The notes under the pieces are model-generated. The model made no database searches. It was not told the DNA's origin and was given only the letters and a program-made list of their open reading frames with translations. A program made the position numbers and the translations under genes. DNA of 45,728 nt from Minisyncoccia bacterium (GTDB lineage: Bacteria > Patescibacteriota > Minisyncoccia > Phycocordibacterales > UBA9973). The stretch covers positions 1 to 45,728 of the forward strand of contig JBBRTD010000005.1 of assembly GCA_038244685.1 (NCBI GenBank), in the 5' to 3' direction. Position 1 is the stretch's first letter, and each line of letters opens with the position of its first letter. This document shows, in pieces, positions 376 through 14,222 of this stretch.

Positions 376-586
376 TGAAATCGATCACTCATCTTAATTT
401 ATTAAGTGAGCCGATCTTATTGAGTCGATATTGTCTGCCTCAATTGAGCAGACAATGGACATTGATTTTAAGTCCTAAAAGAAATCTGACAAGGAGGGAA
501 AGACCCCTAGAACGGAACAAAATAAAGAAAATTTCTGTTACTATTAAATGGATTACTTGATACAAAATATATAAAACAAATTAAAC

Positions 587-620
587 AAAAAATCTCACGT
601 AAGTGGGATTTTTTGTTTTT
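587..620 (+). terminator. intrinsic terminator after 16S trailer
   Basis: AAAAAATCTCAC-GTAA-GTGGGATTTTTT hairpin followed by T-tract. Confidence 0.75.
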
Positions 621-638
621 ATAATTAGTTTGAGATAC

Positions 639-686
639 CATAACTATAAAACCCTCTGGATTAATCCAGAGGGTTTTATAGTTATG
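639..686. terminator. 48-bp perfect palindrome, probable terminator of minus-strand small RNA
   Basis: CATAACTATAAAACCCTCTGGATT|AATCCAGAGGGTTTTATAGTTATG. Confidence 0.65.
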
Positions 687-766
687 TGCTTAAGTCAGCG
701 GGTGCAAAACTCCAACACAATTGCATATGTGAGTGCAGCCGCTGACTTAAAAACACAACGACTGCT
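645..766 (-). ncRNA. candidate small RNA 1 (long hairpin)
   Basis: Minus-strand TTGTAT(800-795)-16-TATAAT(778-773); ~70-nt hairpin with 12-bp arms TTAAGTCAGCGG/CCGCTGACTTAA; inner G-U pairs favour minus strand; terminator at 639-686; no credible ORF. Confidence 0.55.
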
Positions 767-796
767 ACAAATATTATATATTATTCTTTCTAAAAT

Positions 797-887
797 ACAA
801 AACATCCCCGATTGCTCGGAGATGTTTTGTTATGCAATTGCTTTAATAAATATAATTATGTATTAAGCGTTGGAACTTTAACTCACT
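797..887 (-). ncRNA. candidate small RNA 2
   Basis: Minus-strand TTGACA(922-917)-17-TATACT(899-894) promoter; terminator hairpin 797-830; no ORF in between. Confidence 0.5.
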
Positions 888-910
888 GGGTGTAGTATAG
901 CAAAAATTAG

Positions 911-939
911 TTGTATTGTCAAGTCTTTTGTGTTATACT
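911..939 (+). promoter_or_regulatory. sigma70-type promoter of rnpB, overlapping a divergent promoter
   Basis: TTGTAT-17-TATACT with extended TG, 7 nt before rnpB P1. Confidence 0.7.
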
Positions 940-946
940 ACTGGTA

Positions 947-13367: not shown

Positions 13368-13501
13368 CTTGCTAGATTTTAAATTTACTTTTATGATACA
13401 ACTTTACTAATTTGTGTCAATAATTATTATCTCAATAGAATGTTCATTACTTTGCATTTTTGATACATTTTTGGTACTATGGTCACATCTATGAAGAATA
13501 G

Positions 13502-13681
13502 ATACATTCCGTGGTAGCGAGCGGTGGAGTGAGTGTTGGGTAAAGGGACCCGACACGCAAGACCTTGAATATTTTGTAATCAAAATGTGAAAGGTATACA
13601 GCTCCTGTAAGGAGGTCGCCCGTAAGGCGAACGCTCATACAATGCTTAGTAATACGAAATACGTTCTGTTAAGAAATTTAT
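13502..13681 (+). ncRNA. structured element upstream of tRNA-Asn, bounded by a 17-bp direct repeat of the tRNA 5' end
   Basis: ATACATTCCGTGGTAGC at 13502 and 13682; GAGCG/CGCTC closing stem (13519-13636) enclosing four hairpins; promoter TTGCAT-17-TACTAT upstream. Confidence 0.6.
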
Positions 13682-13687
13682 ATACAT

Positions 13688-13762
13688 TCCGTGGTAGCTC
13701 AGCGGTAGAGCGGTCGCCTGTTAAGCGATTGGTCGTAGGTTCGATCCCTACCCACGGAGCCA
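13688..13762 (+). tRNA. tRNA-Asn (GTT)
   Basis: Acceptor TCCGTGG/CCACGGA, D-arm GCTC/GAGC, anticodon loop CTGTTAA, T-loop TTCGATC, encoded CCA. Confidence 0.98.
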
Positions 13763-13797
13763 AAACAAAAACCCCCAGAAATGGGGTGTTTTTATTT

Positions 13798-13934
13798 TGG
13801 CTCCGTGAGCAAAGTATCTGCATACTTTGCGTGGTAGGGATCGAAGCCAATTTCGTTTTTCGGTGCTAATCGAAACGAAAAGGTCTACTGGTCATGTAAT
13901 GACCGATATGTGTACTCACGTCTCTACCCACGGA
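13798..13934. repeat. tRNA-derived inverted/direct repeat element
   Basis: Antisense copy of tRNA 3' end (TGGCTCCGTG 13798-13807 plus GGTAGGGATCGAA 13833-13845) split by a hairpin; two more hairpins; direct copy CTACCCACGGA at 13924-13934. Confidence 0.75.
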
Positions 13935-13994: not shown

Positions 13995-14222
13995 ATGAAA
14001 AAAATTGCAGTTTTAAGTGTTCTAGGTTTTCTGTTATTAGGTTTATTTGGTTTTACAAATAATTCTGAAGCTCTTACTCGAGTCAAAGGTTATACCAAAA
14101 AAAGTGGTACTTATGTAATGCCTCATTATAAATCAACTTCTAATAAAGTTAAATACGACAATTATTCATCTAAAGGAAACTATAATCCATACACAGGGAA
14201 AAAGGGTTATAAGAAATGGTAA
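13995..14222 (+). CDS. small secreted basic protein
   Basis: Signal peptide; VKGYTKKSGTYVMPHYKS...GNYNPYTGKKG motif of a widespread uncharacterised family. Confidence 0.85.
   Translation: MKKIAVLSVLGFLLLGLFGFTNNSEALTRVKGYTKKSGTYVMPHYKSTSNKVKYDNYSSKGNYNPYTGKKGYKKW

What the first reader, a model, noticed from the sequence alone, without database searches (positions are those of the whole stretch)
13763..13934. Antisense and direct copies of the tRNA 3' half downstream: a tRNA nested inside a tRNA-like shell
Seen: the reverse complement of the last 23 nt of tRNA-Asn appears at 13798-13845, split by a perfect 9-bp hairpin (GCAAAGTAT-CTGC-ATACTTTGC). Two more hairpins follow, then a direct copy CTACCCACGGA (13924-13934). 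With the upstream copy TCCGTGG (13508), the outer repeats could form a second acceptor-like stem around the whole ~430-nt locus. Inference: a folding switch controlling tRNA maturation, a decoy protecting the integration hotspot, or a tRNA-targeting MITE. The split-antisense design echoes the sRNA pair at 639-922.
Basis: partly seen in the sequence, partly recalled or inferred. Interest (0 to 1): 0.72.

Follow-up and report, generated by a model that had tools for sequence, protein, structure and literature searches.

The report
Self-matching repeat element behind tRNA genes
The mirror-image and direct copies behind this tRNA gene are real and form one copy of a small gene-less folded element that follows about a quarter of this tiny bacterium's tRNA-type genes, each time rewritten to match its own neighbour; it is built like the long-unexplained tRNA-linked repeats of E. 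coli and is likely a mobile DNA whose enzyme is unknown.

Summary
It is not unique. The same ~170-bp unit follows 11 of 42 tRNA/tmRNA genes in this Patescibacteria genome, and its core occurs in 63 of 93 genomes of the genus and 63 of 100 other genera of the order. The arms always match the adjacent gene, while near-identical cores sit at different tRNAs (33 of 50 pairs). Empty and filled alleles indicate insertion with duplication from the T-loop. A covarying GTA-triloop hairpin and an upstream terminator favour a DNA-level element over an RNA switch. E. coli tRNA-linked repeats (TLR/RtT) have the same layout, including an antisense T-arm that the one TLR paper I could read does not mention, but neither covariance model detects the other family. 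The 'shell' folds in silico but joins two independent insertions (3 both, 3 and 6 single, 13 neither). No mobilising enzyme was found and transcription is untested. This scan found the family before on other DNA. Verdict: new variant of a known, unexplained kind.

The parts
13688..13762 (+). tRNA-Asn(GTT), the only Asn tRNA found in the assembly; host gene of the element
13763..13798 (.). H0: terminator-like hairpin with an A-run before and a T-run after; turn of the long inverted repeat
   Evidence: (sites on both strands at 13771-13787)
13798..13807 (+). Antisense arm 1 = reverse complement of tRNA positions 67-76
13808..13832 (+). H1 module (A + 9-bp hairpin with CTGC loop + GT) at the T-stem/acceptor junction of the antisense copy
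   Evidence: loop CTGC, CTTC or CTAC in 60 of 81 H1 hairpins
13833..13845 (+). Antisense arm 2 = reverse complement of tRNA positions 54-66 (T-loop and 3' T-stem)
13846..13884 (+). H2: long imperfect hairpin with conserved base and variable tip; family core
13885..13904 (+). Linker and H3 hairpin with an invariant GTA triloop; family core
13904..13907 (+). Start of the direct copy: tRNA positions 56-59
   Evidence: position 57 tracks the host tRNA in 102 of 105 elements, position 59 in 98 of 105
13908..13921 (+). Optional 14-nt tail inserted between positions 59 and 60 of the direct copy
   Evidence: (14 nt in 112 of 155 elements)
13922..13934 (+). Direct copy of tRNA positions 60-72 with one mismatch; inferred to be the displaced original 3' end
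13502..13529 (+). Separate upstream unit: duplicated 5' flank, acceptor 5' strand and D-arm of tRNA-Asn
13530..13614 (+). Separate upstream unit: hairpin plus H2/H3-type core of the same wider family; also found inside unrelated palindromes
13615..13665 (+). Separate upstream unit: anticodon-stem-like copy and decayed antisense to the tRNA 5' half

Best explanation
This is one copy of a gene-less, tRNA-linked repeat whose antisense and direct arms match the adjacent tRNA's 3' end, and it is likely a small mobile DNA that acts as a folded single strand and is moved by an unidentified enzyme in trans. Shown: the layout (tRNA 3' end, terminator-like H0, antisense 74-66, H1, antisense 65-54, H2, H3, direct copy from 56/57 with an optional 14-nt tail); the tRNA-specific arms; reuse of near-identical cores at different tRNA types; presence/absence at the same site, with the original flank following the direct copy; tandem units. 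Inferred: the unit from position 57 through H3 could fold as a single-stranded dumbbell in which the antisense arm pairs with the tRNA tail. It would enter the T-loop between about C56 and R57, supply a new 3' end so the tRNA stays intact, and leave the old 3' end as the direct copy. How the arms are rewritten for a new tRNA (fold-back copying or conversion against the local gene) is not shown. After arrival both copies would decay slowly, and H0 would keep most transcription out of the antisense arm.
For: Census: 11 of 42 tRNA/tmRNA genes (contig C14 left out) carry it. Eight passed a strict script with their own tRNA ranking first in 8 of 8 (two with ties); Gln(ttg), Asp and Gly(tcc) were added by eye. 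In 105 genus elements at 32 gene types, antisense to 59-65 pairs 6.0 of 7 with the cognate vs 3.6 with others; antisense to 66-73 scores 7.0 vs 4.9 of 8 (n 91); direct 60-67 scores 7.0 vs 5.1 of 8. The arm even follows TCC-type T-loops in 7 of 8 cases. Cores at most 2 edits apart sit at different tRNA types in 33 of 50 pairs; only 3 of 160 arms fit another tRNA better. Empty L015 and filled L048/L026 share the flank that follows the direct copy. Of 28 direct copies behind genes without encoded CCA, 18 continue like the genomic flank and 4 read CCA, so the template is mostly DNA. H3: 5 of 6 pairs show two-sided changes, 95.7% paired vs 43.6% in the tetraloop register; GNA triloop mini-hairpins are a DNA motif (PMC13037366, passages). 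No compensation between the arms: where tRNA and direct copy differ, the antisense follows the tRNA at 86 of 98 sites; where it departs from the tRNA it pairs with the direct copy at 4 of 73. E. coli TLRs share the layout.
Against: No enzyme is linked: co-occurrence with the GIY-YIG query (51/12/21/9, p 0.29) and with Y1 transposases (53/10/22/8, p 0.26) is not significant, and element presence was scored by a strict pattern that misses some. No circle, excision joint or fresh insertion was seen (contigs only); an empty allele could be a deletion between the direct repeats. The GTA loop is closed by T-A in 90 of 105, not by the C-G of the very stable mini-hairpins. G-T versus A-C counts do not pick one strand. 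Cores are partly tRNA-faithful (nearest neighbour same type 31.8 of 160 vs 3.6% by chance), so much spread is vertical. E. coli TLRs are transcribed and processed as RNA (PMC8144298). An E. coli mobilome preprint saw raised tyrT/rttR coverage but ascribed RNA-gene signals to RNA/DNA hybrids, not circles (10.1101/2024.07.17.603846, passages).
Confidence: 0.55

Rival explanations
1. RNA device: read-through of H0 makes a tRNA-like trailer or small RNA, as for E. coli RtT and rrA/B/F, or a switch that misfolds the pre-tRNA.
For: Predicted read-through fold is -120.5 kcal/mol vs -101.7 with the cloverleaf forced; acceptor-stem probability falls from 0.87 to 0. The unit alone folds like a tRNA top half. 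E. coli rrA/B/F are made by read-through of a first terminator and bind Hfq and CsrA (PMC8144298).
Against: Patchy and tandem occurrence at 37 gene types and no compensation between the arms. The acceptor part of the direct copy is intact (7-8 of 8) in only 80 of 174. H3 is a triloop, not a GNRA tetraloop. Units persist behind displaced tRNA fragments with no tRNA upstream.
Confidence: 0.17
2. By-product: repeated template switching at the tRNA tail and terminator makes a direct-inverted-direct triplication locally, and the constant hairpins spread by gene conversion between loci, with no dedicated mobility.
For: The geometry is that of a tandem inversion duplication (concept recalled; search listing only). 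The arms always match the local gene. No enzyme link.
Against: Junction modules sit at fixed tRNA positions with fixed sizes (14-nt tail in 112 of 155) across 63 of 100 genera and in E. coli; random switching would not give this.
Confidence: 0.15
3. Host-maintained landing pad or decoy: the spare tRNA tail absorbs or recruits incoming cassettes and protects the tRNA gene.
For: The tail plus a cognate 3' copy also ends a 6.2-kb islet at tRNA-Gln(ctg) and a GIY-YIG cassette at tRNA-Ser(gga) in this genome. The region after this unit is a run of short, unrelated accessory genes.
Against: No second Asn tail occurs downstream in the window. In several relatives the unit follows a damaged tRNA-tail fragment with no intact tRNA just upstream (by eye), which suggests incoming DNA still hit the tRNA itself (inference). 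It does not explain the antisense arm.
Confidence: 0.11
4. Chance or assembly artefact.
For: No single listed contig of the two main runs spans tRNA and unit.
Against: Shuffle tests, contigs without differences in two runs and a relative in another study, 173 homologous units.
Confidence: 0.01

Closest known systems
E. coli tRNA-linked repeats (TLRs), including RtT/rttR of tyrT-tyrV (Rfam RF00391) and rrA/B/F (PMC8144298: passages and part 1 of 2 of the Discussion read; Egan and Landy 1978, Rudd 1999 and Bosl and Kersten known only as cited there)
   Same: Gene-less unit directly behind a stable-RNA gene that ends in an 18-19-nt copy of that gene's 3' end, sometimes in tandem. In the K-12 tyr and lys repeats I fetched there is also an antisense T-stem segment (10 nt exact at tyrV, shorter and mismatched at the lys genes), then a hairpin, then a GAA/GTA triloop hairpin, then the copy from position 58/59. 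tyrV shows the same GAGAA variant opposite the T-loop that recurs here. Four units of this genome carry a near-identical triloop motif.
   Different: RF00391 finds 9 E. coli repeats but nothing in the window, in 11 unit-bearing loci of this genome or in 93 genus genomes. My model finds no E. coli repeat (best E 0.65). The antisense copy here is longer (positions 54-74), split by H1 and joined to a terminator; H2 differs in sequence. rrB showed no antisense match of 6 nt or more. Transcription is unknown here.
Attachment sites of tRNA-integrating elements at the T-loop or 3' end (recalled; the Williams 2003 paper was not held)
   Same: [quoted passage not shown]
   Different: No integrase or cargo in the unit; many tRNA types are used by one core; an antisense copy is present.
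REP/BIME/REPIN with RAYT and ORF-less IS200/IS605 derivatives (PMC3733652 passages; mechanism recalled)
   Same: Short, modular, palindromic, multi-copy DNA with a conserved short motif at the foot of a hairpin that is complementary to the target.
   Different: The arms are rewritten per target and there is a target duplication. This genome's Y1 gene has its own unrelated palindromes, and there is no co-occurrence.
Ssn GIY-YIG single-strand nucleases with SRM/NTS hairpin repeats (PMC11893778, passages)
   Same: Small GIY-YIG genes lie near tRNAs in this genus; one ends in this family's tail plus a tRNA 3' copy.
   Different: That junction is absent from its closest orthologue, and only 1 of 30 GIY-YIG loci has it next to the gene. 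The passages read hold no mention of tRNA.
Folded single-strand recombination sites (integron attC, CTXphi attP) (recalled; lead from an earlier scan note)
   Same: A folded strand rebuilds a duplex copy of the target with extra branches.
   Different: No recognisable recombinase boxes or adjacent integrase; a mechanical analogy only.

Membership tests
TLR / RtT | Directly downstream of a tRNA or rRNA gene | tested here: met
   107 of 140 core matches in 130 fetched loci lie within 150 nt of a tRNA/tmRNA end; 17 of 24 best order-wide loci
TLR / RtT | Ends in an 18-19-bp copy of the upstream gene's own 3' end | tested here: met
   Copy spans positions 56/57 to about 73, often interrupted by 14 nt and often eroded; here 56-72
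TLR / RtT | Sequence/structure match to Rfam RF00391, or the reciprocal match | tested here: not met
   (0 of 93 genomes; E. coli control positive)
TLR / RtT | Co-transcribed and processed to a small RNA | tested here: inconclusive
   No RNA run was shown to hold this organism; only low-depth contigs of relatives
Classical MITE | Terminal inverted repeats shared by all copies | tested here: not met
   The ends are tRNA-specific; the constant parts are internal hairpins
Classical MITE | Non-coding, multi-copy, present/absent at orthologous sites with a target duplication | tested here: met
Classical MITE | Cognate transposase with the same ends | tested here: inconclusive
   Five families checked in this genome and none is tied to the unit
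Integrase attL/attR island at a tRNA | Recombinase gene between the direct repeats | tested here: not met
   No ORF fits the ~145 bp between the copies; no serine recombinase domain in the genome
REP/RAYT or IS200/IS605 derivative | Linked Y1 transposase flanked by the same hairpins | tested here: not met
REP/RAYT or IS200/IS605 derivative | Cleavage of folded ssDNA guided by base pairing | not testable with these tools
   Needs biochemistry
Ssn/SRM system | Repeats flank the nuclease gene and co-occur with it | tested here: not met
   1 of 30 loci; p 0.29; the published SRM pattern itself was not searched

The most novel reading that the evidence does not exclude
TLR-type units, from E. coli to Patescibacteria, are self-programming single-stranded DNA elements: a constant hairpin core recruits a widespread host enzyme, and the unit's own antisense arm acts as a DNA guide that is rewritten from whichever structured gene it lands in, making them a retargetable, protein-less insertion system and the docking site for cassette islands at tRNA genes.
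Probability: 0.15. Interest if true: 0.88.

Novelty: new variant of a known kind. Interest (0 to 1): 0.52.

Why it matters
TLRs have been known in E. coli since 1978 with no accepted origin or general function (PMC8144298). A Patescibacteria family with hundreds of copies, arms that track 37 different tRNA/tmRNA tails and cores that move between tRNA types turns the question into a test of how a protein-less unit copies its target in both orientations. E. coli K-12 carries units of the same layout, so this can be tested in a laboratory strain. If the arm is a guide, it would be a new programmable DNA insertion mechanism. If not, the units still explain many false attR calls and 'orphan' hairpins behind tRNA genes in streamlined genomes.

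Tried and rejected
Rfam: only tRNA passes in the region; nothing relevant at E up to 10. RtT model negative. Reciprocal model against E. coli negative.

RNA evidence: four metatranscriptome runs with a 0.05 share were laid. Cover is essentially other organisms' tRNAs, plus single low-depth contigs of relatives over the upstream unit and over H2-H3; the organism is not shown to be in these runs, so this is no evidence either way. Two joints in DNA runs at 85% likeness probably come from other organisms.

Mobilising enzyme: GIY-YIG, Y1, DUF559, tyrosine recombinase, reverse transcriptase and serine recombinase families were checked in this genome; the last two were not found. The first GIY tail test was mis-registered and was redone. 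Retro-copy from mature tRNA (primer-binding-site model) was rejected as the main route because most copies lack CCA and follow the DNA flank, though 4 of 28 read CCA.

Viral contigs: 0 matches to one strict pattern. The strict pattern hit only 1 of 300 other phylum genomes, but it is insensitive, since the model finds 63 of 100 genera of the order; the range beyond the order was not tested with the model. The E. coli-like triloop motif is no general marker: 12 of 201 genomes, with a similar number of control hits. No close relative with the same downstream gene at an empty Asn site was found. The promoter assumed for the 5' fold (13452-13480) is by eye and is not among the scan's hits.

Literature: ten searches found no description of this Patescibacteria family or of an antisense arm in TLRs. 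The library lacks most subscription papers; Rudd 1999 and the original tyrT papers were not seen and may describe the inverted segment. No supplements were read.

Full report
Context. The window is contig C5 of an 850-kb, 33% GC genome. The 80 titled records listed by a strict pattern for the element name Patescibacteria groups (Paceibacterota, Nomurabacteria and others) or unnamed bacteria. tRNA-Asn at 13688-13762 is the only tRNA in the window and is followed by short accessory genes.

Observation. In tRNA numbering the order is: gene; terminator-like H0; antisense to 76-67; H1; antisense to 66-54; H2; H3 with a GTA loop; direct 56-59; a 14-nt tail; direct 60-72. Public contigs reproduce both sides without differences, and a relative in another study bridges the tRNA end to H2.

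It is a family. The same layout follows Gln(ttg), Gln(ctg), Asp, Gly(tcc), Arg(tcg), Leu(gag), His, Trp, Val(gac), Asn and tmRNA: 11 of 42 genes, leaving out the 11 genes of contig C14. A strict script flagged 8 and ranked the cognate gene first in all 8. A covariance model built from 38 genus copies plus this one found 9 genome-wide and Val(gac) and, weakly, Asp in a small search. A core pattern hits 63 of 93 genus genomes with no control hits. I fetched 130 loci covering most of its 168 matches; 107 of the 140 matches in them (a few duplicated) lie within 150 nt of a tRNA or tmRNA, and those of the rest that I could see mostly follow tRNA-tail fragments or are tandem copies. The model hits 63 of 100 other genera of the order; 17 of 24 best loci are next to a tRNA.

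The arms are rewritten, the core is reused. Across 105 elements each arm matches its own gene far better than others (6.0 vs 3.6 of 7; 7.0 vs 4.9 of 8; 7.0 vs 5.1 of 8), and positions 57 and 59 of the direct copy track the host (102 and 98 of 105). The final GAA of the antisense arm is fixed by my pattern and is not evidence. H1 usually sits at the 65/66 junction; here it is at 66/67. Cores within 2 edits lie at different tRNA types in 33 of 50 pairs, although same-type neighbours are enriched (31.8 of 160 vs 3.6%). In this genome Asp and Val(gac) share the same H2.

Insertion with duplication. At tRNA-Asn, empty L015 has directly after the tRNA the flank that follows the direct copy in filled L048 and L026. 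This fits an insertion that supplies a new 3' end, though deletion between the repeats gives the same picture. Direct copies mostly continue like genomic DNA rather than CCA (18 vs 4 of 28).

DNA or RNA. H3 covaries as a triloop (5 of 6 pairs with two-sided changes; 95.7% vs 43.6% paired in the tetraloop register). GNA mini-hairpins are far more stable in DNA than their RNA counterparts (PMC13037366, passages), but the closing pair here is mostly T-A, and stability depends on it (PMC3201870, start of abstract only). H1 loops read GCAG, GAAG or GTAG on the other strand. The antisense arm follows the tRNA gene, not the direct copy (86 vs 7 of 98 sites), and the two copies do not compensate (4 of 73), as expected if both were copied once and then drift, or if only pairing with the gene matters. 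A read-through RNA is predicted to lose the cloverleaf, while a transcript ending at H0 keeps the acceptor stem (P 0.87). RNA data were uninformative.

The shell. The upstream unit is an H2/H3-type core inside a duplicated tRNA 5' half; the same core occurs inside unrelated palindromes, one next to a DUF559-like gene read by eye. Upstream and downstream units vary independently (L009 was excluded for short flank, and L024 and L360 have displaced or variant units scored as absent). The shell is predicted to form (P 0.89) but is not a conserved unit. The 5' unit is predicted to sequester the tRNA 5' half if it is co-transcribed; this is unexplained for a single-copy tRNA and may reflect the limits of equilibrium folding.

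Enzyme. None was found. The GIY-YIG cassette at tRNA-Ser(gga) ends in the family tail, but its orthologue does not, and neither GIY-YIG nor Y1 genes co-occur significantly with the unit; kin are not independent in these counts.

Known relatives. Earlier scan notes pointed to E. coli TLRs, so I fetched them. The tyr and lys repeats have an antisense T-stem segment, a hairpin, a GAA/GTA triloop hairpin and the 18-19-nt direct copy. The paper on TLRs names only the direct copy as their hallmark and gives no general function; searching its text for 'antisense', 'complementary', 'inverted', 'mobile' and 'insertion' found nothing on such an arm. Covariance models fail in both directions. So this works and looks like a TLR, but membership of RF00391 is not met and common descent is unproven.

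Verdict. A real, widespread, gene-less tRNA-linked element: a new variant of a known but unexplained kind, most likely mobile DNA (0.55). The scan has reported the same family in other genomes. What was tested here is the position-by-position tracking, the arm-versus-arm test, core reuse, the triloop register, independence of the 5' unit and the side-by-side check with E. coli.

Noticed in passing
window 560-940: Strongly structured spacer between the 16S rRNA 3' end and RNase P RNA (z -12), with three short complementary segments between 711-734 and 831-886. It looks like an sRNA/antisense pair, has no Rfam match at the gathering threshold and is unrelated to the tRNA element.
   Followed up: partly
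G000:C6:11484-11960: tRNA-Ser(gga), palindromes, a small GIY-YIG gene whose stop codon abuts the family tail, and a Ser 3' copy; the orthologue L172 lacks the junction.
   Followed up: yes
G000:C1:118226-124669: About 6.2-kb islet behind the tRNA-Gln(ctg) element, ending in a second tail plus Gln 3' copy.
   Followed up: partly
G000:C2:60320-60580: tRNA-Phe followed by three tandem 59-bp repeats of its T-arm and 3' end without the family core.
   Followed up: no
G000:C1:132260-132505: A split duplicate of tRNA-Met (5' 25 nt, then anticodon-like pieces) lies just upstream of the intact gene, analogous to the 5' unit at tRNA-Asn.
   Followed up: no
G000:C14: 13.5-kb contig with 10 tRNAs and a second tmRNA unlike the host set; probably phage or foreign DNA in the bin.
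   Followed up: no
G000:C13:14900-16300: RAYT-like Y1 transposase gene with three copies of its own palindrome, one inside the ORF.
   Followed up: partly
L025, L031, L033: The upstream-type core inserted inside unrelated palindromic repeats away from tRNAs, suggesting that the family also targets other hairpins.
   Followed up: partly
L177, L179, L185, L189, L193, L198: Small GIY-YIG genes with their own inverted ends inside or beside tRNA genes and, in L198, apparently inside RNase P RNA.
   Followed up: no
window 13995-14222: 75-aa basic ORF with a signal-peptide-like start directly after the element; no Pfam match.
   Followed up: no
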